A stretch of DNA of 64,000 nt from NCBI GenBank assembly GCA_043805595.1, contig JAZDHV010000006.1, forward strand, positions 11,724 to 75,723, given 5' to 3'. Below, in pieces: positions 857 to 46,157 of this stretch (within the stretch, counting starts at the first letter, position 1; each line of letters starts with the position of its first letter). A program made the translations under genes and the position numbers. This DNA is from Candidatus Woesearchaeota archaeon (lineage in GTDB: Archaea > Nanobdellota > Nanobdellia > Woesearchaeales > JAGVYU01). The notes under the pieces are model-generated. The model was not told the DNA's origin and made no database searches. It worked only from the letters and a program-made list of their open reading frames with translations.

Positions 857-1194
857 GGCAGATAATGAAAGGGAGAAAGATAAGGTTAAATGAAAAGATT
901 GGAGAAATCAAACATTGCAAAAGCATATTTTCAAAAGCAATTGGATTGATGTTCTCTTTTCCTAGAGACAGGGCTTTAGTGTTTCATTTCAACAAGGAGA
1001 AATTAGTTGATTTGCATATGTTCTTTGTTTTCTATCCAATTGATGTATTTTATCTTGATGCTGGGAAGAAGGTCACTTCAGTCAAAAACAATTTTATACA
1101 GTTCACAGTGACATGGCCAAGGAAGGCAAAATATGTGATTGAGGCAAAGAAAGGGTTATTGGACATTAAGATAGGGGATGTTGTAGAGTTCTGA
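853..1194 (+). CDS. DUF192 (COG1430) family protein
   Basis: 113 aa; GLMF...ALVFHF...HMFFVFYPIDVFYLD pattern resembles DUF192; 4-nt overlap with upstream gene. Confidence 0.55.
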   Translation: MRQIMKGRKIRLNEKIGEIKHCKSIFSKAIGLMFSFPRDRALVFHFNKEKLVDLHMFFVFYPIDVFYLDAGKKVTSVKNNFIQFTVTWPRKAKYVIEAKKGLLDIKIGDVVEF

Positions 1195-1250
1195 TTATTG
1201 AATATCAATTATTATTGAATATCAACTATTATTGAATATCAATTGTTATT
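1193..1250. repeat. Tandem repeat, 19-bp unit (attattgaatatcaaYtR) x3
   Basis: Seen directly between convergent genes 853..1194 (+) and 1229..1699 (-). Confidence 0.75.
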
Positions 1251-1699
1251 GCTCCAGAATAATAAGCAATAGCAGTGCAACTACCAACAAATGCTGCCAA
1301 GGCTACAGCTGTTAAACCTCCTTTAATCAAAGTTGATGAGACTGGATGCCTTAAACACCATAATTGATAGTCTGAATAATGAAGCTGTTGATTTACTAAT
1401 TGTCTCAACTCAGGATCTTCATTCCCAACATAAATCTCTTCTAATCCACTTCTTGCTGCAGATCTTTCATATTCAGGATATCTTGGAACCATTCTTAACT
1501 CTTGGACATCTTCAAAACCATCTGACCAGCCAGTAGTCCTATATCCAAGGTCCCTGCGCTCTCCTGTATCTACTAATCTTTTTACTTGATCATTTAATGT
1601 TTTTCCAAATCTTGCTATTAAATCATGCACAGCATCAGTACTAATAGTAGAGTCCATACTTAAGGAGAATACGCTTGAATCTAAAGAACCACCAGTCAT
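1229..1699 (-). CDS. Hypothetical protein with C-terminal TM segment
   Basis: 156 aa ORF; hydrophobic C-terminus GGLTAVALAAFVGSCTAIAYY; start codon lies inside palindrome P1 of repeat copy A. Confidence 0.4.
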   Translation of the reverse strand: MTGGSLDSSVFSLSMDSTISTDAVHDLIARFGKTLNDQVKRLVDTGERRDLGYRTTGWSDGFEDVQELRMVPRYPEYERSAARSGLEEIYVGNEDPELRQLVNQQLHYSDYQLWCLRHPVSSTLIKGGLTAVALAAFVGSCTAIAYYSGAITIDIQ

Positions 1700-1846
1700 A
1701 GACTGGTGGGATTCAATAATTCCACGTCCATTACATCTAAGGACTGGTGGTTCTTAGTGCTCAGGAATTTTTCACTCCTGAAAGCTAAATCAATCAAAGA
1801 TTGCCACCAGCCATAGACTGGGTGGAAAATTCCTGACATTTTAAAG
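1681..1846 (+). repeat. Palindrome-rich repeat element, copy A (~165 bp)
   Basis: Starts ctaaagaaccaccagtcatagactggtgg; contains CCACCAGTC-ATA-GACTGGTGG (1689-1709), half-site GACTGGTGG (1742-1750), degenerate second palindrome (1804-1825) and inverted pair TCAGGAATTTT/AAAATTCCTGA; near-identical to 61392-61556. Confidence 0.85.
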
Positions 1847-1952
1847 TTAATCCCAAAACAGCAGAAACCTCAAAAAAGGTTCCTAAGATTTGAAATATTA
1901 AAAAAAATTTCCCAAAACATTTAAATATCGACTTAAATTCTGATATTCTATC

Positions 1953-2108
1953 GGGGCTGTAGTATAATCTGGCTAGTATAGCGGCCTCCAGTGATGGAGG
2001 GATGAGCCATTTCGGCGATGAATAATCTTTCTGCTGAAGACAGCCGTGGATCTGGGTTCAAATTTGCCAAAAGAACATTATTTTGGCATGAAAATCCCAG
2101 CAGCCCCA
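1953..2108 (+). tRNA. Candidate tRNA-Trp(CCA) with two introns (canonical 37/38 intron ~50 nt; second ~32-nt intron in T-loop region)
   Basis: Acceptor GGGGCTG (1953-1959) pairs with CAGCCCC (2101-2107) plus discriminator A; D-arm with GG; anticodon stem GCGGC/GCCGT around loop CU-CCA-G; T-arm CTGGG-TTCAAAT...CCCAG split by hairpin-forming insert (GCCAAAA/TTTTGGC); first intron carries C/D-box-like motifs (GTGATGG, CGATGAA, CTGA); T-run follows. Confidence 0.5.
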
Positions 2109-2119
2109 TTTTATCTTTC

Positions 2120-2576
2120 CTAAAGAACCACCAGTCATAGACTGGTGGGATTCAATAAATCCGTAAATACCTTATGATAGAACTGGTGGTTCTTAGTGCT
2201 CAGAATGCTCAGAAATCTTTTTAAAAAATTTCTGGCATGCCAAAAATGCTCTGCATTTTTGTGCATTTTCCAGCTTATGCAGGCAGAATCATGCAAAGCT
2301 TGCCGCCAGTCAGAGACTGGATGGAAATGCTCAGAAAAGCTTTGCTTTTCTGGCACACTTAGAAATGCTAAATGCATTTCTTGTGCCCAAAAAACACAAA
2401 GTGTTTTTTAGGGTGTTAAAAATCTGAAAGATTTTTATACAATTCTGACATTTTAATAAAATTTCTGGCATGCCAAAAATGCTTTTCATTTTTGAGCATT
2501 TTTCTGATTCCAATATTGGGACTGGCTTTCGGCCACCAGTTAAAAACTGGTGGAAAATTTCTGACATTTAAAAAAG
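2120..2576 (+). repeat. Degenerate, internally re-duplicated copy of the palindrome-rich element (copy B mosaic)
   Basis: Begins with same ctaaagaaccaccagtcatagactggtgg (palindrome 2128-2148); half-site 2181-2189; degenerate GCCGCCAGTC-AGA-GACTGGATGG 2302-2324; variant CCACCAGTT-AAA-AACTGGTGG 2533-2553; aatttctggcatgccaaaaatgct unit occurs twice (about 2228 and 2458). Confidence 0.75.
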
Positions 2577-3392
2577 ATGGCACAAACAATAATCAGGAGA
2601 GCTAGAAGAGCAAATGACTTAGTTAGTCCAAGGTTTCTGACACAAGTGCCTCAGCGTGATTATATTCTAGAAGGGATCTCAGAACTAGTCAGGATCACAA
2701 CTGAGACCGGCTATGAAGCGGATTTTGATGTCTACAAAAGAGCAAGAACAGAAAAACTTCATATTTCAAAATACATCACTATTGGTGATGAAAATTCAGT
2801 AAGCCTGATATCAGGACTAAACAGGCTATCCTGGGAATATATTGAAAAAATAGGAAAAGACCCTCGATACAAAAGCAATCAAGATGATTTTGAAAGGTTT
2901 GTCAGAAATCATGAGATTGGATTTCAATCACCTATGCCAAAACAAGGCGAAATACCTTATGAAGAATTTGACAGAAGGACAGATTATGCATTATTATCTG
3001 TCCACTCACACCCAGGTGGAGCTGCGCATGCTTCAAGAGAAGACCTGCTTCATCTGAACAATATTAGAAGAATAGATTTTAAAAGAAGGTTAATGAGCAA
3101 CCCAATCAGCATGGTCATTGGAGTATATCAAGACAGCACCAAGACTCATGATGAAGATGAACTGGTAAGAATAATATTCGGCACTGAGCAGTCAGGTGAA
3201 ATAATGCTGTTCCAAGAGAAAAGCGAATGGCCTCATTCAATAAAAACAATAAAAAGGGCTGCGAAGTCATATCTATCTGAAACAGCAGAACAATCTAAAA
3301 AATCATACAATATTGCGAGAGGGCAATATCATGCTGATGAAAAAATGATTGAGGTTCCAGCAGGCTTGCTTGAATTTGGGTTTAGATTCTAA
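2577..3392 (+). CDS. JAB/MPN (JAMM) metallopeptidase-domain protein
   Basis: 271 aa; exact JAMM signature H-S-H-x7-S-x2-D in LSVHSHPGGAAHASRED with upstream Glu. Confidence 0.6.
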   Translation: MAQTIIRRARRANDLVSPRFLTQVPQRDYILEGISELVRITTETGYEADFDVYKRARTEKLHISKYITIGDENSVSLISGLNRLSWEYIEKIGKDPRYKSNQDDFERFVRNHEIGFQSPMPKQGEIPYEEFDRRTDYALLSVHSHPGGAAHASREDLLHLNNIRRIDFKRRLMSNPISMVIGVYQDSTKTHDEDELVRIIFGTEQSGEIMLFQEKSEWPHSIKTIKRAAKSYLSETAEQSKKSYNIARGQYHADEKMIEVPAGLLEFGFRF

Positions 3393-3433: not shown

Positions 3434-4519
3434 TTATTCTATTTTTTTAGCAAAGCCTTGTTTTGTGTCTATAAGAACAAGATCATTGTCTTTCAGAACT
3501 TTTGTAGCAAACTTTGTGCCTATCAAAGCAGGTATCTTGTATTCTCTGCTAAGAATAGCTGCATGGCATGTAACTCCACCTTCATCAGTTATTATTGCTC
3601 CTGCTTTTTTTAGATTTGGAGTTATTAAATCAGTTGTAGTCATCTGAGTAACTAAAACATCACCTTGATTTATCTTGTTCATATCTTCCCTTGTTTTAAT
3701 ATGCTTGACTATTCCCTGATATCTTGCGTCAAAAGTACCTTGGCCTTTTAACTCAGAACTATACACTTCATTTTCAAGATAATGAAGTATTAAAGAGGCA
3801 TTCTCATGCATTGAATACTGTCCATTAGCAAGAATAAAAACACACTTTTGCCTTTCTCTGACTTTTTTGTCAATATCAATTTTATATCCCTTGATAACTT
3901 GTTCAACCTCTTTAGGTGTTAAGAATTTAAGATCATTCACTGTAATTTTTAGCCTATTGGCAATTTCCTTAAACAGAGGCTCTGCTATTTCATGTGTTTC
4001 ATTAAATTTAGATCTTCCTAAAAGCCGCATATTAGCCATAATGTCAACAACTTCTTTTACAAAAATGCTTTTATCATCTTCTATACCTCTTGAGTCTACA
4101 CTGATCAGAAATGTTGGGTAAGCCTGCTTATAGAGAAAGAAATATTTCTTTATTAAGTGAAGCAATTCGATTCTGCTCCTTTTATTCAGGTTTTTAAGGC
4201 TATTGGAGAATTCTATTAAATCACCAAATTTCTCTTTTCCTTCCTCAAGAATCTTATGCATGAAATAATGATCCTGTTCGAGATTATTTTTAATGAATTT
4301 GTCAAGTTCTGAAGAGATTTCATTTCTCCAGAAATGAGAATAAGACATCCCATCCCTTATGGTCAGATAATCTGGATGTTTAATTCCAAATCTTTCTACA
4401 AATTCATTTGTCATTGCTTCATAAACTAAGCAATTCTTCAAGAAATCATTCTTTCTTTCTGCAATTAATTCCCATTTCATTTTAATCAGCAATTTCTGTG
4501 AAAGAATATATTGGAACAA
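3434..4519 (-). CDS. PEP-utilizing enzyme mobile (swivel phosphohistidine) domain protein; PEP synthase / rifampin phosphotransferase-like C-terminal half without ATP-grasp domain
   Basis: 361 aa; C-terminal GGVTCHAAILSREYKIPALIGT matches the conserved phosphohistidine swivel motif. Confidence 0.7.
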   Translation of the reverse strand: MFQYILSQKLLIKMKWELIAERKNDFLKNCLVYEAMTNEFVERFGIKHPDYLTIRDGMSYSHFWRNEISSELDKFIKNNLEQDHYFMHKILEEGKEKFGDLIEFSNSLKNLNKRSRIELLHLIKKYFFLYKQAYPTFLISVDSRGIEDDKSIFVKEVVDIMANMRLLGRSKFNETHEIAEPLFKEIANRLKITVNDLKFLTPKEVEQVIKGYKIDIDKKVRERQKCVFILANGQYSMHENASLILHYLENEVYSSELKGQGTFDARYQGIVKHIKTREDMNKINQGDVLVTQMTTTDLITPNLKKAGAIITDEGGVTCHAAILSREYKIPALIGTKFATKVLKDNDLVLIDTKQGFAKKIE

Positions 4520-5237: not shown

Positions 5238-5355
5238 CTAATTAGTTGTCATAACTAAGTTTTCTATGCATTAGAAGTGAATATTGAGTATATTAATATT
5301 TGTTGTAATCATAATGACAACAATGTTTATATACTTGTTAATATTCCAATTAGAT

Positions 5356-6075
5356 ATGATCACAGAAATATTAGGAGAAATTGGATTAAGTGGAACAGAA
5401 GCTAAAGTTTATGTAGCTTTGCTGGAATTAGGATCAGCTTTAGCTGGAGAAATTACTAAAAAGTCTGAAGTGAATAGGACAAATGTTTATGATGCATTGG
5501 AAAGACTAATAAAAAAAGGTCTTGTTACATATGTGATAAGTGCCAACAGAAAAGTGTTTGAGCCTATAAAACCAGAAAGGATAAAAGAAATTCTTAAGGA
5601 AAAAGAAGAAAAGGTTAACTCAATAATGGAAGAATTGAATACTAAGTACATTACAAGCAAAACAAAAGAGCAAGCAACAATATTTAAAGGAAAGATGGGA
5701 ATTAAGTTAATTTTTGAAGATATTCTTAAAGAAGGCAAAATACTTTATGCATATGGAGCTGAAAGCAGATTTGCAGATAACTTTCCATCATACTTTAAAA
5801 TATGGAACAAGAGAAGGGCTAAACTAGGGATTAAAGTAAAGATGCTCTATAATGAAAAAGTAAGGAAAATAAAATTAACAGAGGGATTTAGATTATTAAC
5901 AATGAAATTCCTTCCAAAACAATATGAATTTCCTTCAACAATCCTTATCTATAATGATAAGGTTGTAACAATTGCATGGTCAGATATTCCATTTGGATTT
6001 ATGATTGAAAGCAAAGAAGCTGTAAGAAGCCAGATGAGTTTCTTTCATATTTTATGGAAGACTGCAAAAGAGTAG
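5356..6075 (+). CDS. TrmB-family transcriptional regulator
   Basis: N-terminal wHTH LSGTEAKVYVALLELGSALAGEITKKSEVNRTNVYDALERLIKKGLV typical of TrmB; start taken at internal Met MITEILGEIGL (ORF track begins at 5284). Confidence 0.75.
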   Translation: MITEILGEIGLSGTEAKVYVALLELGSALAGEITKKSEVNRTNVYDALERLIKKGLVTYVISANRKVFEPIKPERIKEILKEKEEKVNSIMEELNTKYITSKTKEQATIFKGKMGIKLIFEDILKEGKILYAYGAESRFADNFPSYFKIWNKRRAKLGIKVKMLYNEKVRKIKLTEGFRLLTMKFLPKQYEFPSTILIYNDKVVTIAWSDIPFGFMIESKEAVRSQMSFFHILWKTAKE

Positions 6076-6784: not shown

Positions 6785-7528
6785 ATGAATCCAAAATTAA
6801 TACTTGAAAACGCAGGATTGGCAGGAAATGAAGTAAAAATCTATCTTGATCTTCTTGGTCTAGGATCTGCTTTGGCAGGAGAAATCACAAAAAAGTCAGG
6901 TATTAATAGGACAAATGTCTATGATGCTTTGGAAAGACTTATAGAAAAAGGCCTTGTCAGCTATGTTATAAAAACAAATAGAAAATATTTTGAAGCTGCT
7001 GAGCCAACTAGAATCACTAAGTTCCTGTCTGAAAAACAGGAAGAGATAGAACAAAAAAAGAAATTAGTAAATTCAATACTTCCTGAATTAAAGGCTAAAA
7101 GAATGCTAAGTAAAGAGCCTCAAGAAGCGACAATTTTTAAAGGCAGGAAAGGAATAAAATCAGTGGCTGAAGATGTCATAAAGACGAAAAAAGAATTACT
7201 TGTTTTTGGAGCAGAAGGCAAGTTTGTAGATTTATTCACACACTATGCAAGGCAATGGCATTTGAAAAGAAAAGAAAACAGAATTCCATTAAAAATTCTT
7301 TTTAATGAAAAAATTAGAAAAAAGAAATCCAAAGAAAAGTTTCCTATCTGTCAAATGCGATATAGCTCAAATATACAAGAGACTCCAGCAACAACATGGA
7401 TCTATGGTGACAAGGTAGCGATAATGGTTTGGGGAGAGCAGCCAATTGCCACTTTGATAAGAAGCAAAGAGGTAGCAAAATCATATAAAGTAAATTTTGA
7501 TCTTTTGTGGGATTTGGCCAAAAAATGA
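6785..7528 (+). CDS. TrmB-family transcriptional regulator (paralog of 5356..6075)
   Basis: N-terminal EVKIYLDLLGLGSALAGEITKKSGINRTNVYDALERLIEKGLV is near-identical to the HTH of the upstream paralog. Confidence 0.75.
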   Translation: MNPKLILENAGLAGNEVKIYLDLLGLGSALAGEITKKSGINRTNVYDALERLIEKGLVSYVIKTNRKYFEAAEPTRITKFLSEKQEEIEQKKKLVNSILPELKAKRMLSKEPQEATIFKGRKGIKSVAEDVIKTKKELLVFGAEGKFVDLFTHYARQWHLKRKENRIPLKILFNEKIRKKKSKEKFPICQMRYSSNIQETPATTWIYGDKVAIMVWGEQPIATLIRSKEVAKSYKVNFDLLWDLAKK

Positions 7529-7630: not shown

Positions 7631-8791
7631 ATGAAAAAAGAGGTGTGGGAGGCAGCTGCGACATTAGTCGGAGCAACAATCGGCGCAGGAGTCTTGGGAA
7701 TCCCTTATGTGATTGCAAAAGCAGGGTTTATTGTAGGCCTCGTGGATATCTTGATCATAGGTTTCTTCATCCTAATGCTTCAGCTCTATATGGGTGAGAT
7801 TGTATTGAGGACAAAAGGAAACCATCAGATAACAGGATTTGCAGAGAAATATATCGGGAAAAAAGGAAAATTTATTGTTGCATCACTTTTCATATTAAGC
7901 ATTTACGGTGCCTTGATTGCCTACCTGATTGCCAGCGGAGAATTATTGTCGACGATATTTGGAGGAAACCCAATATATTATGGATTTGGATTCTTTGTCT
8001 TCTGCAGCACAATAATATATATTGGAATCAAGGCAATCAAAAGATGGGAACTAGGGATATCAATGATCCTTATCGGGATCCTAATACTGATAATAACAGT
8101 ATCCTTCACAAAAATCAATTATTCAAATTTTCACCTAGTTAACTTTAACAATATACTTGTACCATATGGAGTTATCCTATTCTCATTATTTGGCACAGTG
8201 GCAATACCAGAGATGAAAGAAGAGCTCAAGAAGAACAAGAAAGAGCTGAAAAAAGCAATAATAATCGGGACAACTATATCAATACTGATTGCAATAATCT
8301 TCAGCTTTGCTGTATTAGGAGTGGTTGGACTACAGAATTTTGAGAGTCTTGAAACAGACAAAAGAATTGCAACAATAGCACTTGGGCAAATAATGGGGAG
8401 AAATATGCTCATATTTGCAAACTTGTTTGCATTATTTGCAATAACAACAAGCTTTTTAGTATTAGGCTATGGGTTAAAGGAGATGTTCCATTTTGATGAC
8501 CATATTGGATGGAGGCTGTCATGGATCTTCACAATATCTGTACCAATAATTTTTTTCTTCATTGACTCATTTATTGTCGATATCACCAATTTTATCAATA
8601 TAATCGGATTTACAGGAACTTTTGCATTAGGGTTAATAGGAATAATGACTGTCATCATATATATGAAAGCCAAGAAATACGGGGAGAGAAAACCAGAATA
8701 TACAATTGCAAAAAACAGAGTGATAGAATATCTTCTGATTGGGTTGTTTGTTCTTGGAATGGCTTATGAGATTGTTAAAATGTTAATATAA
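7631..8791 (+). CDS. Amino-acid permease-family transporter (Trp/Tyr permease / AAAP-like), ~11 TM
   Basis: 386 aa polytopic membrane protein; N-terminal EAAATLVGATIGAGVLGIPY motif typical of amino acid transporters. Confidence 0.65.
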   Translation: MKKEVWEAAATLVGATIGAGVLGIPYVIAKAGFIVGLVDILIIGFFILMLQLYMGEIVLRTKGNHQITGFAEKYIGKKGKFIVASLFILSIYGALIAYLIASGELLSTIFGGNPIYYGFGFFVFCSTIIYIGIKAIKRWELGISMILIGILILIITVSFTKINYSNFHLVNFNNILVPYGVILFSLFGTVAIPEMKEELKKNKKELKKAIIIGTTISILIAIIFSFAVLGVVGLQNFESLETDKRIATIALGQIMGRNMLIFANLFALFAITTSFLVLGYGLKEMFHFDDHIGWRLSWIFTISVPIIFFFIDSFIVDITNFINIIGFTGTFALGLIGIMTVIIYMKAKKYGERKPEYTIAKNRVIEYLLIGLFVLGMAYEIVKMLI

Positions 8792-14401: not shown

Positions 14402-15715
14402 TTAATAATAAGTTTGTGTCCCTTCTGCGTCCTCGTCTTCATCGCCTTTTAATTTGTTAAATCCAATTATCAGGCCAAGAATGACTAAAAGGACGACTAA
14501 AACAACCAAACCAATCTCCAAGCCTCTCTTAAGGCTTGATCCAGCAACACCACTAGCTGATGTTCCAGCAACATTTGCTGTAAGTGGAATCTGTTTTAAA
14601 ACACTGTCTCCTGAACTTACAGATAGGCTGAATCCATACTGACCAGCTGGCACGCCCTGCTTTGCTGACAAGAACACTAAAACTGAATCAGCATCACCAG
14701 CATTTACCAATATTGTGTTACTTGGCTGGATTGAAGCATCTAACTGGTTTCCACCATTAACAGATACTGTGTAAGCTCTTGTTGAAGAACCTGCATTAGT
14801 AATTGTCACCTGGTAAGCACCTGCTCCTTCTCCAGTAGATACATCCTGAACCTTGATTATTGTTGAAGGTCCAGCTTCTGGTTGTGTAGTTGGAACTACA
14901 GTATCAAGCTCACAAGCTTCATTTGGAATAACCTCGATTGTCCTTGTTGTTGAAGCAACCTCGTCACCATCATCATAGGTAACATCGATCTGTACTGTGT
15001 AATCTCCTGCTTCAGCACAATCAGGAATCCTCATGTAAAGCTCTTCACTTGTTGTTTGATCATCATCTTCACCCTCAGGCTCAAGCTCATCAATGTAGTC
15101 AGCAGCTGAAATTCCTAATTCTGGTATAGATACTTCAACTTTAACGCCGTCTTCATTTCTGTCTCCATTATTTTCAACCCTAACAGTTGTCAATAGAGCT
15201 CTTCCAGCCTTTATCTTTCCAGCAGGTGAAAAGATAACATCGTCAATATCAATTAAATGTTCTGGGGTTTCAACTAAGATTGCATAATATCTCATTATTG
15301 AAATATCCCTTGTGGTTCCATGAATAGTTAATATTATATCATAAATCCCTGGTTCCATTCTTTTTGTCAATCTTAGATCAAGTCTCTCAATGTATCTTCC
15401 TCCGACAGTCAAATCAAAAACTTCTGATTCAGCTGCAATCACATCATCTCTAGAATCACCTTTAATCTCAACTTCAATTTCGACATATCTATCTGTTGAC
15501 TCATTTGCATTAAATGTTATTTTCAATGGTAATGTTTCTCCTCTATCAAGAACTGCAAAGGAACCAGTTAGTGGATCTGGATCTCCTTCTGGTAGCTCGA
15601 TATTGTCGAGATAAACTGTTATTGAACTCTCGTCTATCTGTGCACTTGCAATTGTTGTAAGTGCCAAGACACTTATCAGAAACATTAACAACATTCCGAA
15701 TATTTTACTTTTCAT
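14402..15715 (-). CDS. S-layer-like secreted surface protein with C-terminal TM anchor and acidic tail
   Basis: 437 aa; N-terminal signal peptide MKSKIFGMLLMFLISVLALTTIASA; C-terminal GLEIGLVVLVVLLVILGLIIGF followed by DEDEDAEG; Thr/Ser/Gly/Asp-rich beta-like composition. Confidence 0.55.
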   Translation of the reverse strand: MKSKIFGMLLMFLISVLALTTIASAQIDESSITVYLDNIELPEGDPDPLTGSFAVLDRGETLPLKITFNANESTDRYVEIEVEIKGDSRDDVIAAESEVFDLTVGGRYIERLDLRLTKRMEPGIYDIILTIHGTTRDISIMRYYAILVETPEHLIDIDDVIFSPAGKIKAGRALLTTVRVENNGDRNEDGVKVEVSIPELGISAADYIDELEPEGEDDDQTTSEELYMRIPDCAEAGDYTVQIDVTYDDGDEVASTTRTIEVIPNEACELDTVVPTTQPEAGPSTIIKVQDVSTGEGAGAYQVTITNAGSSTRAYTVSVNGGNQLDASIQPSNTILVNAGDADSVLVFLSAKQGVPAGQYGFSLSVSSGDSVLKQIPLTANVAGTSASGVAGSSLKRGLEIGLVVLVVLLVILGLIIGFNKLKGDEDEDAEGTQTYY

Positions 15716-15947
15716 TTGTTTTACCCCCTATATAATTTATTTTAATATTGATAGTTATATGGACGTAATTACATACTCATTTATAAACCTTTCGATTAAT
15801 GAGTATTATATAGTAATTACACCTAATAACTATGGTATAGTAAATACAACTTATATTTAAATATTATTGTATCATACTATATATATTTCCACTCGTAACT
15901 TTCAATACATCACCTTCTTTTTTTAGATATCCCCTCATATTAATCAA

Positions 15948-18900
15948 TTAATATATTTCTAATTCTCTATGACGGACTCTCCTCAAGTCATCACTTTTTG
16001 TTGAAGCTATAGAAACCCTCACGTCATAAATTCCTGGATCTGCCCAGTCTGGAATCTCTAAGTCAGCAAGTTTCGTCACTGTTGTCTTTGCATCAATACC
16101 AAAAGGACCTAACTTTCTTCTAACTCCAAGTTCAGGAATTGTGTATGTGACTGTAATCTCTTTTATATCATAATAGTCGTTGTTAGTCATTGTAATTACT
16201 GCCTGAACACTGCTTCCTGCCTCAAACTTATCTGAGTATGTTCCGTCGAAACTAATCCTGTCAATAAACAGCTTTCTACGAGGAGATGAAATCGGATCTG
16301 GTATAACTACGTCAATAATAAAATCCTGCAAGTCTGTCAAAAATCCGTCGGAAACCATGATTATCACATGATTTTCACCAGCCTGATCCTCATCTGGATC
16401 CCATTGTATCAATCCAGTAACTGGATCAATTGTCATGTCAGCCGGCCATGTTATTAGTGAATATACAAGAGGATCATTGTCAGGATCTGACGCATCTGAA
16501 TCATACTCATATCTCTCAACAAAATCCATTGGATCATTAATCTCTAAATAAGTTACAGGTGCTGATGTGAAATAAGGCGCATGATTAATCAATGGATCAA
16601 ACAAAACATTTACAACAAATGTATCCTCTGTAAATAATCCATCCGGATCCTCTGCCCTCACAACAGCTGTGCATGAACCGATAAAAGATAAGTCTGGAAC
16701 TATGTCAACATCATCATTGGAGCCAATTGATATTCCACATTGATTGTTGTTTGAAACAGACATCAAGGTGTATGTTAATTCTGAATCTGAATTATCTGGA
16801 TCGTCGGTATAATCATTCAGATTGAAAACATTATCATTCACAGAGTCTTCAAATACATCCTCATCAGGCAATCCGCTTATAACTGGTCCATCATTAATCT
16901 CATCATCGTCAAAATAATCAGTGCAACCTAGGTCATCAGGAAAATCTGTATATGTGTCAAAATCGTTGTCTACAGAATCAGAACACTCAGTATAATCACA
17001 ACCTAAACTATCATCACAAATAAAATAACAATAATCAGTGCCTGTATCAACATCTAAATCACAATAACTATGCTCAGTACCAGCATTCTCACAAATCGGA
17101 GTGTGAGTAGTGGTAACAAAATCAAGACCACCACAAGCAGACTCATCATAAGGAGAACCACAATCAAGATCAGCATAACACAAAACAGGACCATCTGATT
17201 CGTCATCGTCAAAATAATCAGTGCAACCTAGGTCATCAGGAAAATCTGTATATGTGTCAAAATCGTTGTCTACAGAATCAGAACACTCAGTATAATCACA
17301 ACCTAAACTATCATCACAAATAAAACTACAATAATCAGTGCCTGTATCAACATCCTCATCACAATAACTATGCTCAGTACCAGCATTCTCACAAATCGGA
17401 GTGTGAGTAGTGGTAACAAAATCAAGACCACCACAAGCAGACTCATCATAAGGAGAACCACAATCAAGATCAGCATCACAAACAACAACACCATCAGACT
17501 CATCATCATCAAGATATGAATCACAACCAAAATCAGCTGGATAATCTATATCACCATCACCATCATTATCAACACCATCATTACATTCATAAAATTGCCT
17601 TACAACAGTCAAAGTAACAACATTACTGTCTGCTGTCCCACCATTGCCATCATTTGCAGTAAATGTTACAGTCTCAACACCAAAATAACTAGATGGCTGA
17701 GTAAAACTGACAATATGGGAAGTTGGATTGATTGAAACGACAATATTAGGATTGTCTAAAGCAGATGCTGCATATGACAGAGCATCTCCATCTGGATCAG
17801 AAAAATAGTTGTCTAGGTCAAAAGCATTCAAATTTGATGTCCCTTGGTTCCATGTCTCATCAGAAATTGGGTTTACAATTGGATCAAAATTAGGCGGATC
17901 ATTTATAGGTGTAACAGTTACTCTGAAAGTGTCTTCAGAATATAATCCATCTGGATCTGTAACTCGAACAACAGCGTCACAAACACCATTAAAATCTAAT
18001 GCTGGAGCAATGTCAATATTGTCTGAACCATCAATGCTTATTCCACATTGATTGCTGTTTGAAACTGATGTAAGAGAATATATCAATTGTGAATCTGTAT
18101 TATCTGGATCACTAGCAAAATCATTCAAGTTAAAAGCATTAGGCTTTGTTGTGTCTTCTGCAAGAGTCTGATCAGGCAATGAACCAATCACAGGAGCATC
18201 ATTAACAGGAGTGACAGTAACCCTGAAAGTATCTGTATCAAAAGCTCCCAAAGGATCTTCAACCCTAACAGTAACATCACAAATTCCATAAAAATTAAAA
18301 TCAGGATTTATGTCAATATTGTCGCTTCCATCAATAGTAACTCCACATTGATTTCCATTAGTAATAGATGTCAATGAGTAAGCCAATAAAGAGTCAGCAT
18401 GATCTGGATCACCTGCATAATCATTCAAGTTAAATGCGTTATTAATTGATGCATCCTCTGCTAATGTTTGATCAGGCAATCCGCTTATTGTTGGTGCGTC
18501 ATTGACTGGTGTGACAGTAACTGAGATTGAATCAGTATCAGTCAATCCACCTGTATCTTGAACTGTGAATGTGACTATGCCTGTTGAACCACTATATCCC
18601 GGAGCAGGTGTAAAAGTCACAATATGAGTTGTTGGATTGATTGAAACACCAACATTAGGCAATTGATTAGATGTCCATGACAGATCTCCATCAAGGTCTT
18701 CCTCATCCTGGACATAATCATCCAAGTCAAGACTGTTATGGATTGTGTCTTCTGGGAATGAAACATCAGGAATATTAGTTATGATTGGAGGTGTGTTTGC
18801 CTTGTGCATAGCTCTTGAGACAGTCAGGTCTGTATTAGAAATATCAAACTCTCCTTCAATTGGAAGATATAATGGATTTGTAACATCATATGTATAGTGG

Positions 18901-20201
18901 CCGTTTACATAACCGCCGATAACAGCAACGCCATTTGAATTGGTTGTTGCAGTCTGACCATTTGATGAAACAGTTGCGCCCTGGATTCTTGCAGCAGTTG
19001 TATCATCTGAAATTATGAAAGTAACCTCATAGACTGGAGCTGGAGCAACATAAATCTCTTCCTGAGCTGTCTCAGTTGGATTAGGTTTTCCGTCACAAAG
19101 CGGTGAGTCAGCAGTTCCTGCCACTTCCATTGTAAAAACATCCTCATATGGAGCAACCCATTGGAATGAATGTGCTGTCGGATCAACTTCATTCGGATTA
19201 GCTGGAAGTGAAGCTGAACCAGATAAAATAACCTGATGAGCTGAATTTCTCACTTCATAATCAATATCTGTAGGAACAGATGTCAAAGCATGCTGTGGAT
19301 CAGCATAATTGCTGATCTTATTATACTCAACTGTTACAGTGTCTCCTGCAACTGGATAAGGATCAGTTGTCCTCAATCCATTGATGATTGTGTAACATTC
19401 ATTTGTAGGCCTTCCTGGAAGCACACCAAAATATTTACTTGATGACAATGGAATATTTGAGGAACATTGGTTGTCAGTAACAACAGTCCTTACTGTTGCC
19501 TCATATTGTCCGTCTTCAGCAGGAACCCATGAATATTCAACATTTTTCACCTCATCCATAAAGATTGGGTCACCATGTGCAGCATCAAAATAAGTCATCT
19601 GCTGGTTAACAATCTGGCCATCTTTTTTGATTGTCAAAGATACAGTAGTGTCTGCAGAATAATAGATATCCCTGTATGCTGGAGGGATATATCCAACATT
19701 ATTATGAGCATCCTGGAAAGCTGAATGAGTTACTGCATCTAATGAAGCAGAAACATTAACCTGCAAAGGCTCATTAGCATAAAGATCATTTGTGACTGTG
19801 AATTCATCAATTGTAGAAGCGCAATTTGCAACTCTGTCAAAATTAATATCAACACTTCCTGAAGCATGTCCAGGATTGCAAAAAGTATGGAATGTAGCAA
19901 TGCCTTCAACAGGGATATATCCTGTATCAGCTGGATTTGCTGCTGGAACTATGAAATAACCTGCATAACCAAAAGGGGACAATAAACAAGAGGGGAATGA
20001 GATCAGCATGTGCCCATTAGAGGTTGATCCTGAAAATGAAAATGGAGTTGAGCTAACAGTATCACAGTTAATGTCGAGACAGGTAAAGAACTTTGATTCG
20101 ACATTGTTGACATTAAAGTTAAATGTAATGTCTGCAACTGCAAAGACATTTGCTGCCAGAAGAACAGCTAAAAATGGCATTATAAATAGTATTTTTTTCA
20201 T
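15948..20201 (-). CDS. Giant (1417 aa) secreted adhesin-like protein with cadherin-like (VNDAP) repeats and duplicated Cys/Asp-rich modules
   Basis: Signal peptide MKKILFIMPFLAVLLAANVFA; at least three ~100-aa repeats RVTVTPVNDAPxISGLPDQTLAED; two near-identical Cys-rich modules; no C-terminal anchor. Confidence 0.7.
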   Translation of the reverse strand: MKKILFIMPFLAVLLAANVFAVADITFNFNVNNVESKFFTCLDINCDTVSSTPFSFSGSTSNGHMLISFPSCLLSPFGYAGYFIVPAANPADTGYIPVEGIATFHTFCNPGHASGSVDINFDRVANCASTIDEFTVTNDLYANEPLQVNVSASLDAVTHSAFQDAHNNVGYIPPAYRDIYYSADTTVSLTIKKDGQIVNQQMTYFDAAHGDPIFMDEVKNVEYSWVPAEDGQYEATVRTVVTDNQCSSNIPLSSSKYFGVLPGRPTNECYTIINGLRTTDPYPVAGDTVTVEYNKISNYADPQHALTSVPTDIDYEVRNSAHQVILSGSASLPANPNEVDPTAHSFQWVAPYEDVFTMEVAGTADSPLCDGKPNPTETAQEEIYVAPAPVYEVTFIISDDTTAARIQGATVSSNGQTATTNSNGVAVIGGYVNGHYTYDVTNPLYLPIEGEFDISNTDLTVSRAMHKANTPPIITNIPDVSFPEDTIHNSLDLDDYVQDEEDLDGDLSWTSNQLPNVGVSINPTTHIVTFTPAPGYSGSTGIVTFTVQDTGGLTDTDSISVTVTPVNDAPTISGLPDQTLAEDASINNAFNLNDYAGDPDHADSLLAYSLTSITNGNQCGVTIDGSDNIDINPDFNFYGICDVTVRVEDPLGAFDTDTFRVTVTPVNDAPVIGSLPDQTLAEDTTKPNAFNLNDFASDPDNTDSQLIYSLTSVSNSNQCGISIDGSDNIDIAPALDFNGVCDAVVRVTDPDGLYSEDTFRVTVTPINDPPNFDPIVNPISDETWNQGTSNLNAFDLDNYFSDPDGDALSYAASALDNPNIVVSINPTSHIVSFTQPSSYFGVETVTFTANDGNGGTADSNVVTLTVVRQFYECNDGVDNDGDGDIDYPADFGCDSYLDDDESDGVVVCDADLDCGSPYDESACGGLDFVTTTHTPICENAGTEHSYCDEDVDTGTDYCSFICDDSLGCDYTECSDSVDNDFDTYTDFPDDLGCTDYFDDDESDGPVLCYADLDCGSPYDESACGGLDFVTTTHTPICENAGTEHSYCDLDVDTGTDYCYFICDDSLGCDYTECSDSVDNDFDTYTDFPDDLGCTDYFDDDEINDGPVISGLPDEDVFEDSVNDNVFNLNDYTDDPDNSDSELTYTLMSVSNNNQCGISIGSNDDVDIVPDLSFIGSCTAVVRAEDPDGLFTEDTFVVNVLFDPLINHAPYFTSAPVTYLEINDPMDFVERYEYDSDASDPDNDPLVYSLITWPADMTIDPVTGLIQWDPDEDQAGENHVIIMVSDGFLTDLQDFIIDVVIPDPISSPRRKLFIDRISFDGTYSDKFEAGSSVQAVITMTNNDYYDIKEITVTYTIPELGVRRKLGPFGIDAKTTVTKLADLEIPDWADPGIYDVRVSIASTKSDDLRRVRHRELEIY
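16903..17502. repeat. Near-perfect 300-bp tandem duplication inside adhesin gene
   Basis: Seen directly: 16903-17202 vs 17203-17502, only a few mismatches; encodes duplicated Cys-rich module DCGSPYDESACGGLDFVTTTHTPICENAGTEHSYCD... Confidence 0.85.
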
Positions 20202-45811: not shown

Positions 45812-46157
45812 AATAAAAAATGAAGGGATTTATGTATTGATTCTGTTAGTTCTTACATTAGTTTTGTTTAAGTTAGTGTTTTTTAAAGAGAGTGTCTTGG
45901 TTATATTAAGAACAGTTGTTTCATTATATTGGCTTTTTATAATCCCAGGAATAGCAATGATGTACTATTGGCATGACAAACTCAAGTTTTTTGAGAGAAT
46001 GATAGTCGGGACTGCATTAAACATTGGATTGTTTATTATATTTAGCTATAATATTTCTATTATGGGACTGCATATTAAGTGGCATATTTGGGTTTGGCCT
46101 GTTTTGGTTCTTTTGGGAAGTTGGTTTGTTATTAAGTTTATTAAAGAAAAAGATTAG
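45783..46157 (+). CDS. Small membrane protein (4 TM)
   Basis: Start taken at internal Met to remove overlap with upstream gene; hydrophobic throughout. Confidence 0.35.
   Translation: MEMDQKLLNKIKNEGIYVLILLVLTLVLFKLVFFKESVLVILRTVVSLYWLFIIPGIAMMYYWHDKLKFFERMIVGTALNIGLFIIFSYNISIMGLHIKWHIWVWPVLVLLGSWFVIKFIKEKD

What the first reader, a model, noticed from the sequence alone, without database searches (positions are those of the whole stretch)
1953..2108. Candidate tRNA-Trp(CCA) with two introns, one carrying C/D-box-like motifs, sandwiched between repeat copies
A 7-bp acceptor stem GGGGCTG/CAGCCCC plus discriminator A encloses 156 nt, far more than the ~75 nt of an uninterrupted tRNA. It resolves into D-arm, anticodon arm GCGGC/GCCGT with loop CU-CCA-G, and T-arm CTGGG-TTCAAAT-CCCAG only if a ~50-nt insert follows position 37 (1992-2041) and a ~32-nt hairpin-forming insert (GCCAAAA/TTTTGGC) sits in the T-loop region (2064-2095). 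The first insert carries GTGATGG, CGATGAA and CTGA, reminiscent of the C/D-box sRNA embedded in the euryarchaeal pre-tRNA-Trp intron. Non-canonical second introns are a hallmark of certain archaeal lineages and help place the organism.
Basis: partly seen in the sequence, partly recalled or inferred. Interest (0 to 1): 0.7.

Follow-up and report, generated by a model that had tools for sequence, protein, structure and literature searches.

The report
Twice-interrupted archaeal tRNA-Trp gene
This is a real tryptophan tRNA gene of a tiny uncultured (Woesearchaeota/DPANN) archaeon. It is broken by two removable inserts, and one of them carries a stripped-down version of the RNA guide that other archaea use to methylate this same tRNA.

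Summary
Window 1953-2108 (+) encodes tRNA-Trp(CCA) interrupted twice: a 50-nt intron at the canonical 37/38 site (1992-2041) and a 32-nt intron in the T-loop at 59/60 (2063-2094). ARAGORN and Rfam miss the gene as it stands. ARAGORN calls it once the T-loop insert is removed. An intron-less syntenic orthologue has exactly the length of the predicted 74-nt product. About 60 relatives, nearly all Woesearchaeota/Nanoarchaeota, splice in silico to covarying cloverleaves.

Intron 2 folds by minimum free energy into a near-canonical bulge-helix-bulge. Intron 1 has only a relaxed one.

Intron 1 belongs to a conserved family. It has a 7-nt guide complementary to nt 31-36, a D-type box (AUGA 2002-2005), a covarying hairpin and a C-type box (GAUGA 2017-2021). 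Together these make one K-turn. The fifth guide nucleotide upstream of the D-type box pairs with C34. This is the rule used by the euryarchaeal tRNA-Trp box C/D intron.

There is no guide for position 39. CUGA mainly belongs to the splice helix.

Verdict: a real gene of a known kind. Its intron looks like a reduced, single-K-turn guide for Cm34; that function is inferred, not shown. Moderate interest.

The parts
1920..1927 (+). Archaeal TATA box / box A (TTTAAATA), 33 nt upstream of tRNA nt 1
   Evidence: A TTTAWA-type motif lies at -31 to -36 in about 35 of 48 related tRNA-Trp loci, including the window. Box A about 26 nt upstream of the transcription start is described for nanoarchaeal tRNA genes (PMC3491384).
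1953..1991 (+). 5' exon, tRNA nt 1-37: acceptor 5' strand, D arm, anticodon stem 5' strand, loop C32 U33 C34 C35 A36 G37
   Evidence: ARAGORN call after removing intron 2. Coordinates checked.
1992..2041 (+). Intron 1, 50 nt, canonical position 37/38
   Evidence: ARAGORN -i. The intron-less orthologue L006 reads CUCCAG-A across this site. The family has 41 distinct related introns.
1995..2001 (+). Guide UGGAGGG: pairs with A36-C31. G1997 pairs with C34 (1988) and is the 5th nt upstream of the D-type box
   Evidence: In the family alignment, positions 32-36 are paired in at least 34 of 38 sequences. Position 31 covaries (G:C 20, C:G 8). Overall 90% of cells are paired, against 34-46% with slid partners. 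An independent set gives 88%.
2002..2005 (+). D-type box AUGA (family consensus NNGA; GA invariant), the non-bulged strand of the K-turn
   Evidence: Columns G24 and A25 of A1 are invariant. Box counts: AUGA 21, UUGA 6, CUGA 6.
2006..2016 (+). Hairpin GCC-AUUUC-GGC, the canonical stem of the K-turn
   Evidence: The closing G-C is present in 39 of 41. Pairs 2 and 3 covary (CG, GC, UA, UG, AU), paired 40/41 and 29/35 against shuffle means of 26.7 and 17.7.
2017..2021 (+). C-type box GAUGA (family consensus N-R-U-G-A; UGA invariant): 3-nt bulge G-A-U plus sheared G2020-A2021
   Evidence: T39, G40 and A41 are invariant in A1. Variants AAUGA, UGUGA, CAUGA and UAUGA show that the first two positions vary while UGA does not.
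2022..2035 (+). Tail. 2025-2033 (AUCUUUCUG) can pair with 1995-2003 (guide plus the first two D-box nt) to give helix h' of the splice motif.
   Evidence: Duplex of -8.0 kcal/mol, z = -0.85 against shuffles, so weak on its own. The same CUUUCC-YUGAAG tail recurs in the window's subfamily.
2036..2041 (+). GAAG (3' strand of central helix H, pairing with C35, C34 (mismatch), U33, C32) plus AC, the first two nt of the 3-nt 3' bulge AC|A38
   Evidence: G at n-5 in 40 of 41 and G at n-2 in 35 of 41 family members. GAAG is the commonest H strand (19 of 41). H has exactly 3 of 4 pairs in 33 of 41.
2042..2062 (+). Middle exon, tRNA nt 38-59: A38, anticodon stem 3' strand, 4-nt variable region, T stem 5' strand, T-loop UUCAAA
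2063..2094 (+). Intron 2, 32 nt, T-loop position 59/60. H = UUCA 2057-2060 / UGAA 2089-2092; h' = UGCCAAAA 2065-2072 / UUUUGGCA 2081-2088; 3' bulge AA|U 2093-2095; 5' bulge AAUU 2061-2064 (4 nt)
   Evidence: The minimum-free-energy fold of the T arm plus insert is this motif, -17.2 kcal/mol, z = -5.2. The same site is interrupted in more than 25 relatives by unrelated inserts of 16 to about 87 nt. H covaries: UUCA/UGAA against UUCG/CGAA.
2095..2108 (+). 3' exon, tRNA nt 60-73: U60, T stem 3' strand, acceptor 3' strand, discriminator A73. No encoded CCA
2109..2112 (+). TTTT run directly after the discriminator, a likely archaeal oligo-T terminator
   Evidence: Sequence. A T-stretch terminator for nanoarchaeal tRNA genes is described in PMC3491384. 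Function is inferred.

Best explanation
Window 1953-2108 is the tRNA-Trp(CCA) gene of a Woesearchaeota (DPANN) archaeon. It is transcribed from a TATA box at 1920-1927 and split by two introns of the kind removed by the archaeal splicing endonuclease.

Shown by sequence and comparison: removing 1992-2041 (37/38) and 2063-2094 (59/60) gives a 74-nt cloverleaf with CCA anticodon and A73.

Intron 2 is a near-canonical helix-bulge-helix-bulge-helix substrate with no conserved content. It is most likely a neutral or selfish insert. This site is often occupied in this lineage's tRNA genes.

Intron 1 is a member of a conserved Woesearchaeal intron family. The core of that family is a single K-turn: a D-type box NNGA, a closed covarying hairpin and a C-type box NRUGA. 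It is preceded by a 7-nt guide complementary to tRNA nt 31-36(37).

Inferred: L7Ae binds the K-turn and recruits Nop5-fibrillarin. Because the 5th guide nucleotide upstream of the D-type box pairs with C34, the wobble cytidine is 2'-O-methylated (Cm34) on the precursor. This would act in cis through the hairpin CCUCCA/UGGAGG, or in trans between two precursors, or from the excised intron.

The precursor must then refold before the endonuclease can cut. Nt 32-35 pair with GAAG 2036-2039 to form helix H, with a conserved internal mismatch. The guide pairs with the tail 2025-2033 to form h'. This creates a relaxed bulge-helix-bulge.

My confidence in each part: gene and both introns about 0.93; K-turn about 0.8; Cm34 guide function about 0.55.
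For: Gene and introns:
- ARAGORN calls tRNA-Trp once intron 2 is removed.
- The syntenic intron-less orthologue has the identical 74-nt length.
- The same gene with both introns is in L001/L022.
- 45 genome loci and 30 metagenome loci were found. 47 distinct spliced sequences give 11 compensatory pairs in three stems.
- A TATA box sits at -31 to -36 across the family.
- The intron 2 BHB is the minimum-free-energy fold, z = -5.2. H covaries between UUCA/UGAA and UUCG/CGAA.

Intron 1 core:
- 41 distinct introns share guide, NNGA, hairpin and NRUGA with fixed spacing.
- GA and UGA are invariant.
- Covariation score is 0.206 against 0.058 in shuffles (0 of 500 reach it); 90% of cells are paired against 34-46% with slid partners.
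- A covariance model finds the motif only at tRNA-Trp genes in 376 kb.
- In a set selected only on the T arm, 15 of 17 Trp genes have the core.

Link to box C/D guides:
- Contig L079 carries a full C/D intron in tRNA-Trp. Its guides obey the N+5 rule for C34 and C39 and share the string CUGGAGCGAUGA with this family.
- The literature reports that the euryarchaeal intron guides Cm34 and Um39 (PMC7994747; PMC11408192).
- Half-mer C/D RNAs assemble with L7Ae, Nop5 and fibrillarin in vitro (PMC3608112).
- Fibrillarin, Nop5 and L7Ae are in the single-copy marker set used to assess archaeal genome completeness (PMC9258230).
- DPANN endonucleases with the L3 loop are associated with disrupted tRNA genes (PMC5829648).
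Against: - There are no expression, splicing or modification data.
- Standard tools do not call the gene in its native form.
- The intron 1 BHB is poor. H has a C34.A mismatch, an A.C mismatch lies next to the 5' bulge, and the model is about 9 kcal/mol above the minimum free energy. The h' complementarity is not significant on its own (z = -0.85).
- The guide duplex is only 6 bp in the window, shorter than the roughly 10 bp of canonical C/D guides.
- There is no conserved box C and no second K-turn, so a canonical symmetric C/D RNP cannot form on one molecule.
- A few relatives carry unrelated introns or none (L024, L036, L082, L006), so the module is dispensable.
- No endonuclease, L7Ae, Nop5 or fibrillarin gene lies in the window, so their presence in this genome is assumed.
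- The fixed guide-to-box spacing partly reflects how I anchored the parse, although the MAFFT alignment reproduces it independently.
Confidence: 0.72

Rival explanations
1. Intron 1 is a complete, canonical box C/D sRNA as the first reader laid it out: C = GUGAUGG 1991-1997, C' = CGAUGAA, D = CUGA 2034-2037. It would guide two methylations (C34 and nt 39), as in Haloferax and Pyrococcus.
For: - All three strings are present.
- C' to D spacing is 12 nt in the window and 10-13 nt in its subfamily.
- There is a weak SNORD38-like hit over 2010-2042, E = 2.3.
- A genuine full C/D tRNA-Trp intron exists in L079.
Against: - GUGAUGG overlaps the guide and lies only 4 nt from the D-type box.
- The linker that creates it varies freely in relatives (UAC, AUG, UAA, UCAUG and others).
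- The 12-nt stretch upstream of CUGA has no complementarity to the nt 39 region or to any other part of the tRNA. It is complementary to the first guide instead.
- Across the whole family the distance from the C-type box to NNGA-AG ranges from 1 to more than 20 nt, while its distance to the 3' splice site is fixed.
- No Rfam C/D family is matched.
Confidence: 0.07
2. The K-turn and the anticodon-complementary segment of intron 1 are structural only. L7Ae binding, or the RNA fold alone, chaperones the precursor or masks the anticodon until splicing. No methylation is guided.
For: - The duplex is short (6-7 bp). There is a single K-turn and no box C.
- The guide also pairs with the intron tail, so it doubles as a strand of the splice motif.
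- L7Ae is known to bind K-turns outside C/D RNAs (PMC5539422, listed).
Against: - The spacing that puts exactly C34 opposite the 5th nucleotide upstream of the D-type box holds in 41 of 45 introns. A purely structural role would not need this.
- The arrangement guide, D-type box, C-type box has the correct polarity for a C/D guide.
- The full C/D intron of L079 uses the same guide-plus-box string for C34.
- Position 31 covaries with the guide.
Confidence: 0.2
3. The locus is a decaying tRNA pseudogene. A once-intact (or single-intron) tRNA-Trp gene was disrupted in the T-loop by insertion of a small mobile or repeat element, in a region full of such repeats.
For: - The gene is flanked by about 85-nt repeat copies, and 2120-2575 is repeat-rich.
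- The 10-mer CATGCCAAAA in intron 2 recurs in the neighbouring repeats.
- tRNA finders fail on the native sequence.
- L001 shows a rearrangement scar at the 5' end of the same gene.
Against: - The insert sits exactly where a 4-bp helix and 3-nt bulge form with the T-loop, and that fold is the minimum-free-energy structure.
- The exons are intact, with all stems paired.
- The insert is kept, with only loop substitutions, in a relative whose proteins are 91% identical.
- Many relatives have unrelated inserts at the same 59/60 site with the same H helix and bulge.
- The promoter and T-run are intact.
- The full 32-mer occurs only once in the window.
Confidence: 0.04

Closest known systems
Euryarchaeal pre-tRNA-Trp box C/D intron (Haloferax volcanii; Pyrococcus sR50; Clouet-d'Orval et al. 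2001, Singh et al. 2004, as summarised in PMC7994747 and PMC11408192). A full example was seen here in metagenome contig L079.
   Same: - Same host gene and same site (37/38).
- A guide complementary to the anticodon loop places C34 opposite the 5th nucleotide upstream of a D-type box.
- The K-turn-forming GA / UGA boxes have the right polarity.
- The guide-plus-box string (C)UGGAGCGAUGA is shared with L079.
- The guide fold and the splice fold are mutually exclusive.
   Different: - Only one K-turn is conserved, and its canonical stem is a closed hairpin.
- There is no conserved box C.
- There is no guide for nt 39.
- The guide is 6-7 nt instead of 10-12. It starts 2-6 nt after the 5' splice site, so the duplex does not span the exon-intron junction in the window.
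- The intron is 30-57 nt, against 138 nt in L079 and about 105 nt in H. volcanii (the latter from my own knowledge).
- No Rfam C/D model matches.
Multiple-intron tRNA genes with non-canonical BHB introns (Thermoproteales, ARMAN-2/Micrarchaeum and other DPANN; Sugahara 2007/2008, Fujishima 2011, Kaneta 2018: PMC4033280, PMC3239211, PMC5829648)
   Same: - Two introns in one tRNA, one of them outside the anticodon loop.
- hBHBh' or relaxed variants at the junctions.
- Found in a lineage whose endonuclease type is reported to tolerate relaxed motifs.
- Standard tRNA finders miss the gene.
   Different: - Here the lineage is Woesearchaeota.
- The non-canonical site 59/60 is a recurrent hot spot across many Trp (and some other) tRNA genes, holding unrelated inserts of 16 to about 87 nt.
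- Whether 59/60 in Woesearchaeal tRNA-Trp has been catalogued before could not be checked in the papers held.
Nanoarchaeum equitans tRNA-Met intron encoding a C/D-like sRNA (PMC3491384)
   Same: A DPANN archaeon with a C/D-type RNA inside a canonical tRNA intron.
   Different: - Different tRNA.
- A 66-nt stable intron with an identifiable box C and box D.
- Here the module is a single K-turn with a short cis guide.
Half-mer box C/D RNAs used for in vitro and crystal studies, and simple K-turns such as Kt-7 (PMC3608112; PMC3884654, listed; the Kt-7 comparison is from my own knowledge)
   Same: The layout is the same: stem, 3-nt bulge, tandem G.A/A.G, with one guide 5' of the GA strand. These RNAs assemble with L7Ae, Nop5 and fibrillarin.
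   Different: Those are engineered fragments. This would be a natural one, embedded in a tRNA intron.

Membership tests
Archaeal intron-containing tRNA gene (BHB introns) | Removing the inserts yields a canonical cloverleaf with a standard anticodon loop and T-loop | tested here: met
   ARAGORN calls tRNA-Trp(cca), 74 nt. The length is identical to the intron-less orthologue L006. Stems covary in 29 aligned spliced relatives.
Archaeal intron-containing tRNA gene (BHB introns) | Bulge-helix-bulge at the junctions of intron 2: two about 3-nt bulges separated by a 4-bp helix, with cuts 2 nt into each bulge | tested here: met
   The minimum-free-energy fold has T stem, 4-bp H (UUCA/UGAA), 3-nt 3' bulge AA|U, 8-bp h' and a 5' bulge of 4 nt instead of 3. 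The same H and bulge are seen in relatives, with an A57-U to G57-C compensatory change.
Archaeal intron-containing tRNA gene (BHB introns) | Bulge-helix-bulge at the junctions of intron 1 | tested here: inconclusive
   The 3' bulge AC|A and the outer pairs of H are conserved: C35-G in 40 of 41 and C32-G in 35 of 41. But H has only 3 of 4 pairs, the 5' site lies in a loosely closed bulge, and the model is -12.4 against a minimum free energy of -21.6 kcal/mol. It fits only the relaxed (hBH / BHL-like) class.
Archaeal intron-containing tRNA gene (BHB introns) | A splicing endonuclease (EndA) able to cut relaxed motifs, and an RtcB-type ligase, encoded in the genome | not testable with these tools
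   Neither is in the 64-kb window. The literature reports alpha4 EndA with an L3 loop in DPANN lineages, and a Woesearchaeota genome was among those surveyed (PMC5829648).
Archaeal intron-containing tRNA gene (BHB introns) | Mature spliced tRNA detected | not testable with these tools
   No RNA data are available.
Box C/D guide RNA (including the tRNA-Trp intron guide) | Box C (RUGAUGA) near the 5' end, pairing with terminal box D | tested here: not met
   The window has GUGAUGG. It overlaps the guide, lies 4 nt from the D-type box and is not conserved in relatives.
Box C/D guide RNA (including the tRNA-Trp intron guide) | At least one K-turn or K-loop formed by a C-type (..UGA..) and a D-type (..GA) box | tested here: met
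   GA (2004-2005) and UGA (2019-2021) are invariant and flank a covarying hairpin closed by G-C. Protein binding was not tested.
Box C/D guide RNA (including the tRNA-Trp intron guide) | Guide immediately 5' of a D/D' box, with the target nucleotide opposite the 5th guide position | tested here: met
   G1997 pairs with C34 and is the 5th nt upstream of AUGA. The spacing is kept in 41 of 45 family introns. The duplex is only 6-7 bp.
Box C/D guide RNA (including the tRNA-Trp intron guide) | Second guide, for nt 39 in the tRNA-Trp intron | tested here: not met
   The 12 nt upstream of CUGA (2022-2033) has no complement in the precursor around nt 39. It complements the first guide. By contrast, L079 has a clear C39 guide.
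Box C/D guide RNA (including the tRNA-Trp intron guide) | Two box pairs with about 12-nt spacers (symmetric RNP) | tested here: not met
   There is a single conserved K-turn. The minimal family member is 30 nt with a 4-nt tail (L052).
Box C/D guide RNA (including the tRNA-Trp intron guide) | Match to a curated C/D family model | tested here: not met
   No Rfam hit at gathering threshold. The best is SNORD38, 15.5 bits, E = 2.3.
Box C/D guide RNA (including the tRNA-Trp intron guide) | 2'-O-methylation of the predicted target that depends on the guide | not testable with these tools
   Needs RiboMethSeq, mass spectrometry or in vitro reconstitution.

The most novel reading that the evidence does not exclude
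Woesearchaeota, and this gene in particular, carry a natural 'half-mer' box C/D guide. It is a single K-turn hairpin with a 6-7-nt guide, lodged 2-6 nt inside the tRNA-Trp intron, and it directs Cm34 on its own precursor. Two such precursors may be bridged by a Nop5 dimer. The guide toggles between pairing with the anticodon (methylation) and pairing with an anticodon-mimicking tail (formation of the splice motif), which would order methylation before splicing. This would be the smallest natural C/D-type guide known. It may be a reduced derivative of the full two-guide intron seen in L079 and in Euryarchaeota.
Probability: 0.45. Interest if true: 0.6.

Novelty: new variant of a known kind. Interest (0 to 1): 0.45.

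Why it matters
- Annotation. Standard tRNA finders miss this gene, so genomes of this lineage appear to lack tRNA-Trp. Recognising the 37/38 plus 59/60 layout recovers it in dozens of DPANN assemblies. Kaneta et al. 2018 already noted incomplete tRNA sets in DPANN genomes.
- Minimal guide. If the guide function holds, the intron family defines a minimal natural C/D-type module: one K-turn and a 6-7-nt guide. It also offers a simple test system for two questions: how few elements L7Ae/Nop5/fibrillarin need, and how methylation and splicing are ordered on one precursor.
- Intron turnover. Syntenic orthologues carry zero, two or at least three inserts, and unrelated inserts of 16 to about 87 nt occupy 59/60. 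This gives a compact data set on tRNA intron gain and loss outside the Thermoproteales.

Tried and rejected
- ARAGORN default and -i on the native sequence, and Rfam at gathering and at E <= 10: no tRNA and no C/D family. The hits were only chance-level (SNORD38, TtnuCD14, STnc450).
- A nt 39 guide upstream of CUGA: no complementarity.
- A search of the window for targets of that 12-mer: only chance-level near matches. No rRNA is in the window to test.
- h' helix significance by shuffling: weak, mean z = -0.44, so I do not rest the case on it.
- A link between intron 2 and the flanking repeats: only a shared 10-mer, and the full 32-mer is unique in the window. Not pursued.
- A scan of the window for canonical C/D sRNAs: it matched only coding repeats inside the ORF 15948-20201.
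- The bacterial promoter/terminator scan is not informative for an archaeon.
- An exact-protein look-up of the downstream ORF found no record.
- The primary papers (PMC92551, PMC275556, PMC2580716) are not held. Details of the euryarchaeal intron therefore rest on reviews, on my own knowledge and on L079.
- I could not test for EndA, L7Ae, Nop5 or fibrillarin genes in this genome; none is in the window.
Full report
OBSERVATION

The region reads exactly as described.
- Acceptor stem: GGGGCTG 1953-1959 pairs with CAGCCCC 2101-2107, followed by discriminator A2108.
- Between them lie a D arm (GTAT/GTAT), an anticodon stem GCGGC 1981-1985 / GCCGT 2043-2047 and a T stem CTGGG 2052-2056 / CCCAG 2096-2100.
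- The anticodon loop is complete only if 1992-2041 is skipped (CUCCAG + A2042).
- The T-loop is complete only if 32 nt are skipped (UUCAAA + U).

ARAGORN (default and -i) and Rfam at gathering thresholds report nothing in the native window. A permissive Rfam scan gives only chance-level hits. After deleting 2063-2094, ARAGORN -i calls tRNA-Trp(cca), 74 nt, with a 50-nt intron at 1992-2041. With both inserts removed it calls the same tRNA without an intron.

ORGANISM AND CONTEXT

The window has 34.8% G+C. Neighbouring ORFs are archaeal in type: Memo, DUF192, TrmB regulators, STT3 and glycosyltransferases. The Memo protein's best relative (91% identity) and many others are from Candidatus Woesearchaeota / Nanoarchaeota metagenome-assembled genomes.

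A TATA box TTTAAATA lies 33 nt upstream of nt 1, and a TTTT run follows the discriminator. The same TATA position (-31 to -36) recurs in about 35 of 48 related loci. This matches the box A and T-stretch described for nanoarchaeal tRNA genes (PMC3491384).

COMPARATIVE EVIDENCE FOR THE GENE AND THE SPLICE JUNCTIONS

1. The closest relative (L001 = L022, GCA_043810355.1) has the same gene with both inserts. Intron 1 is identical, and intron 2 differs only in its loop.
2. In L006 the gene lies between DUF192 and a Trp/Tyr permease gene, the same two genes that flank it in the window and in L001. There it has no intron and is 74 nt long, so it aligns position for position with the predicted product.
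3. I ran a pattern scan of one genome per species, anchored on the D arm, the anticodon loop and the T-loop. It returned 45 loci, nearly all labelled Woesearchaeota, Nanoarchaeota or Nanoarchaeia.
4. A metagenome scan anchored only on the T arm with an insert returned 30 more loci.
5. An explicit cloverleaf search spliced 47 distinct sequences to 73-74 nt. RNAalifold on 29 of them recovers the acceptor, anticodon and T stems, with 11 pairs showing compensatory changes.

The gene and both junctions are therefore well supported.

INTRON 2 (2063-2094, position 59/60)

The minimum-free-energy fold of the T arm plus insert is:
- T stem, then a 4-bp helix UUCA 2057-2060 / UGAA 2089-2092
- a 3-nt 3' bulge AA|U 2093-2095
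- an 8-bp outer helix 2065-2072 / 2081-2088
- a 5' bulge of 4 nt rather than 3

The energy is -17.2 kcal/mol, z = -5.2 against shuffles.

The same site is interrupted in more than 25 relatives by unrelated inserts of 16 to about 87 nt. They have the same helix and bulge. Where the T-loop is UUCGAA, the intron strand is CGAA, which is a compensatory change. No sequence is conserved inside the insert, so I assign it no function beyond being spliceable.

INTRON 1 (1992-2041, position 37/38)

Aligning the relatives shows a conserved family, with 41 distinct members in the genome set. The layout is:
- 5' splice site
- linker of 0-6 nt
- 7-8-nt guide complementary to tRNA nt 31-36(37)
- NNGA
- G-[hairpin]-C
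- N-R-U-G-A
- tail of 4 to more than 40 nt
- GNNG-NN | A38

In the window these are: linker UGA 1992-1994, guide UGGAGGG 1995-2001, AUGA 2002-2005, hairpin 2006-2016, GAUGA 2017-2021, tail 2022-2035, GAAG 2036-2039 and AC 2040-2041.

A plain MAFFT alignment (A1) puts its gaps only in the linker and the hairpin loop. It shows GA and UGA as invariant.

Counting pairs on A1:
- 90.4% of cells are paired, against 34-46% with slid partners.
- The covariation score is 0.206, against 0.058 in shuffles (0 of 500 reach it).
- Position 31 covaries with the guide (G:C 20, C:G 8).
- Hairpin pairs 2 and 3 covary among CG, GC, UA, UG and AU.

A covariance model built from A1 finds the motif only at tRNA-Trp genes in 376 kb of sequence. 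This includes two further syntenic loci that the patterns had missed (L002, L004/L005). In the T-arm-selected metagenome set, which was not chosen on intron 1, 15 of 17 distinct Trp genes carry the core. The pair counts hold there too.

WHAT THE CORE IS

A GA strand followed at once by a stem, and the stem's other strand followed by three nucleotides (N-R-U) and GA, is the K-turn consensus. It is also the arrangement of a box D/D' with a box C/C'. That comparison rests on established knowledge of K-turn and box C/D structure.

Only UGA is invariant in the C-type box, while the two preceding positions vary. This shows that the second GA of GAUGA (2020-2021) is the sheared pair and that G-A-U is the bulge.

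The guide lies 5' of the GA strand, as in C/D RNAs. Its 5th nucleotide upstream of the box (G1997) pairs with C34 (1988).

Contig L079 gives a direct comparison. It holds a tRNA-Trp gene with a 138-nt intron containing C, D', C' and D boxes. CGGGUAUG-CUGA puts C39 at N+5. CUAACUGGAGCG-AUGA puts C34 at N+5, with a 10-bp duplex across the exon-intron junction. That is the two-guide design reported for Euryarchaeota, which makes Cm34 and Um39 (PMC7994747; PMC11408192).

The window's family shares the string UGGAG(C/G)GAUGA with L079 but keeps only that one unit.

WHAT IT IS NOT

Relatives have UAC, AUG, UAA, UCAUG and other linkers there.
- The 12 nt upstream of CUGA has no complement near nt 39 or elsewhere in the precursor. 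It is instead complementary to the guide itself (2025-2033 with 1995-2003).
- CUGA overlaps GAAG. GAAG keeps a fixed distance from the 3' splice site: G at n-5 in 40 of 41 and G at n-2 in 35 of 41.
- In the window's subfamily the tail does keep 10-13 nt between GAUGA and YUGA. A vestigial second unit therefore cannot be excluded. Across the whole family, though, the tail can be as short as 4 nt (L052).

SPLICE MOTIF OF INTRON 1

With the standard geometry (nt 32-35 pair with intron nt n-2 to n-5):
- H is C32-G2039, U33-A2038, C34.A2037, C35-G2036.
- The 3' bulge is A2040 C2041 | A2042.
- The 5' bulge is A36 G37 | U1992.
- h' is G1993.U2035, an A.C mismatch, then 1995-2003 with 2033-2025.

This model scores -12.4 kcal/mol, against -21.6 for the minimum-free-energy fold, which contains the guide:anticodon hairpin.

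Family-wide, H has exactly 3 of 4 pairs in 33 of 41 introns, and the perfect complement GGAG never occurs. The motif is therefore relaxed. That fits the reports that DPANN endonucleases with the L3 loop accompany disrupted tRNA genes (PMC5829648). It remains the weakest part of the model.

MECHANISM (INFERRED)

The precursor can adopt two exclusive folds.
- Fold A: the anticodon loop pairs with the guide and the K-turn is free to bind L7Ae. Nop5-fibrillarin would then methylate C34. A single K-turn is unusual, but half-mer C/D RNAs assemble with L7Ae, Nop5 and fibrillarin (PMC3608112). Two precursors could also share a Nop5 dimer.
- Fold B: the anticodon loop pairs with GAAG and the guide pairs with the tail. 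This presents both splice sites to the endonuclease.

Fibrillarin, Nop5 and L7Ae are in the single-copy marker set used to assess archaeal genome completeness (PMC9258230). None of them is in this window, and neither is EndA.

Some relatives lack the module (L024, L036, L082) or lack any intron (L006). This agrees with the report that the Haloferax intron is dispensable (Joardar 2008, cited in PMC11408192).

COMPARISON AND NOVELTY

Multi-intron tRNAs with non-canonical BHB introns are a known kind (PMC4033280; PMC5829648). So are C/D guides inside tRNA introns: tRNA-Trp in Euryarchaeota and tRNA-Met in N. equitans (PMC3491384). This gene is a new member of the first kind.

Its intron 1 fails several defining tests of a canonical box C/D RNA: no box C, one K-turn, no second guide and no Rfam match. 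It meets the two mechanistic tests: a K-turn, and a guide obeying the N+5 rule. I therefore file it as a reduced variant that probably works like a C/D guide, not as a canonical member.

I found no paper in the held library describing this Woesearchaeal family. That library is incomplete.

VERDICT

The finding is real and correctly interpreted in outline. Its interest is moderate. It is ordinary as a split tRNA gene. It is more interesting as an entry point to a conserved minimal guide-like intron and to a 59/60 intron hot spot in DPANN tRNAs.

Noticed in passing
window 1681-1764 and 2120-2203; hairpin core also at 1804, 2303, 2533, 25270, 61400, 61515: An about 85-nt repeat unit with 14-nt terminal inverted repeats (AAGAACCACCAGTC / GACTGGTGGTTCTT) flanks the tRNA gene. 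Its hairpin core CCACCAGTC-NNN-GACTGGTGG is dispersed at 8 sites, where 0 are expected by chance. It looks like a MITE or REP-type element. The downstream copy is absent at the same place in the close relative L001.
   Followed up: partly
window 2203-2575: The whole spacer between the tRNA gene and the next ORF (2577-3392) is made of further short repeats, for example 59-nt copies at 2218-2276 and 2451-2509, with palindromes around GGCATGCC. The 10-mer CATGCCAAAA is shared with intron 2 (2081-2090, minus strand).
   Followed up: partly
L001 4962-5136: In the closest relative, the promoter is followed by a decayed copy of the first 22-26 nt of the tRNA, then about 150 nt of unrelated sequence, then the full gene, which lacks its own TATA box. 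This looks like an integration or duplication scar at the 5' end of the tRNA gene.
   Followed up: no
L009, L012, L019, L038 (upstream of the pattern match): Some relatives carry a further insert in the D-loop of tRNA-Trp, after ...GUAUAA. An example is L009: GGGGACGTAGTATAA|ACCTTTTGGGTTAACCAAAAAGGGTACAG|CCTGGCTAG. These genes therefore have up to three introns.
   Followed up: no
L004/L005 14883-15076, and ORF 15045-15737 (-): This syntenic tRNA-Trp has the K-turn intron and apparently two inserts in the T arm: one between the T stem and the T-loop, and one at about 59/60. The annotated 3' end of a LAGLIDADG-domain ORF on the opposite strand overlaps the tRNA gene's 3' end.
   Followed up: no
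L079 66-305: A GC-rich metagenome contig holds a tRNA-Trp gene with encoded CCA and a 138-nt intron. The intron is a full box C/D RNA with guides for C39 and C34. The gene also has a 59/60 T-loop intron. It is a useful reference for the canonical design.
   Followed up: partly
L060, L063, L066, L067, L072, L078: Metagenome tRNA genes with other anticodon loops (UUCGGGA, UUCGGGG, CUAGGGC; probably tRNA-Pro) also carry inserts at T-loop 59/60. The site is therefore a general intron hot spot in these lineages.
   Followed up: no
intron 1 family (window 2036-2039): The central splice helix is almost never perfect: 33 of 41 introns have exactly 3 of 4 pairs (GAAG 19, GGUG 6, GUAG 5). The perfect complement GGAG is never seen. 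Unexplained; it may keep the splice fold weaker than the guide fold.
   Followed up: partly
window 7631-8791; L006 16016-17182; L001 8253-9413: A Trp/Tyr permease-family gene lies near the tRNA-Trp gene in three lineages. In L006 it starts 110 nt downstream. This may be coincidence.
   Followed up: no
window 1194-1251: Three tandem copies with a 17-nt period (ATTATTGAATATCAA..) lie between the DUF192 ORF and the convergent ORF 1229-1699.
   Followed up: no
window 16900-16938 and 17203-17238 (-): Strings that fit a C-box / D-box / C'-box pattern occur twice. They lie inside the repeated Ig-like domains of the 1417-aa ORF 15948-20201, so they are coding repeats and not sRNAs.
   Followed up: yes
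window 5284-6075 and 6785-7528 (also 46154-46912): There are paralogous TrmB-family regulators. A 179-nt stretch is 74% identical between the first two genes. Two proteins carry only a PEP-utilising mobile domain (3434-4519, 48314-49771). The window from about 27 kb to 61 kb is a large glycosylation cluster (STT3, GT2, GT9, epimerases, flippase).
   Followed up: no
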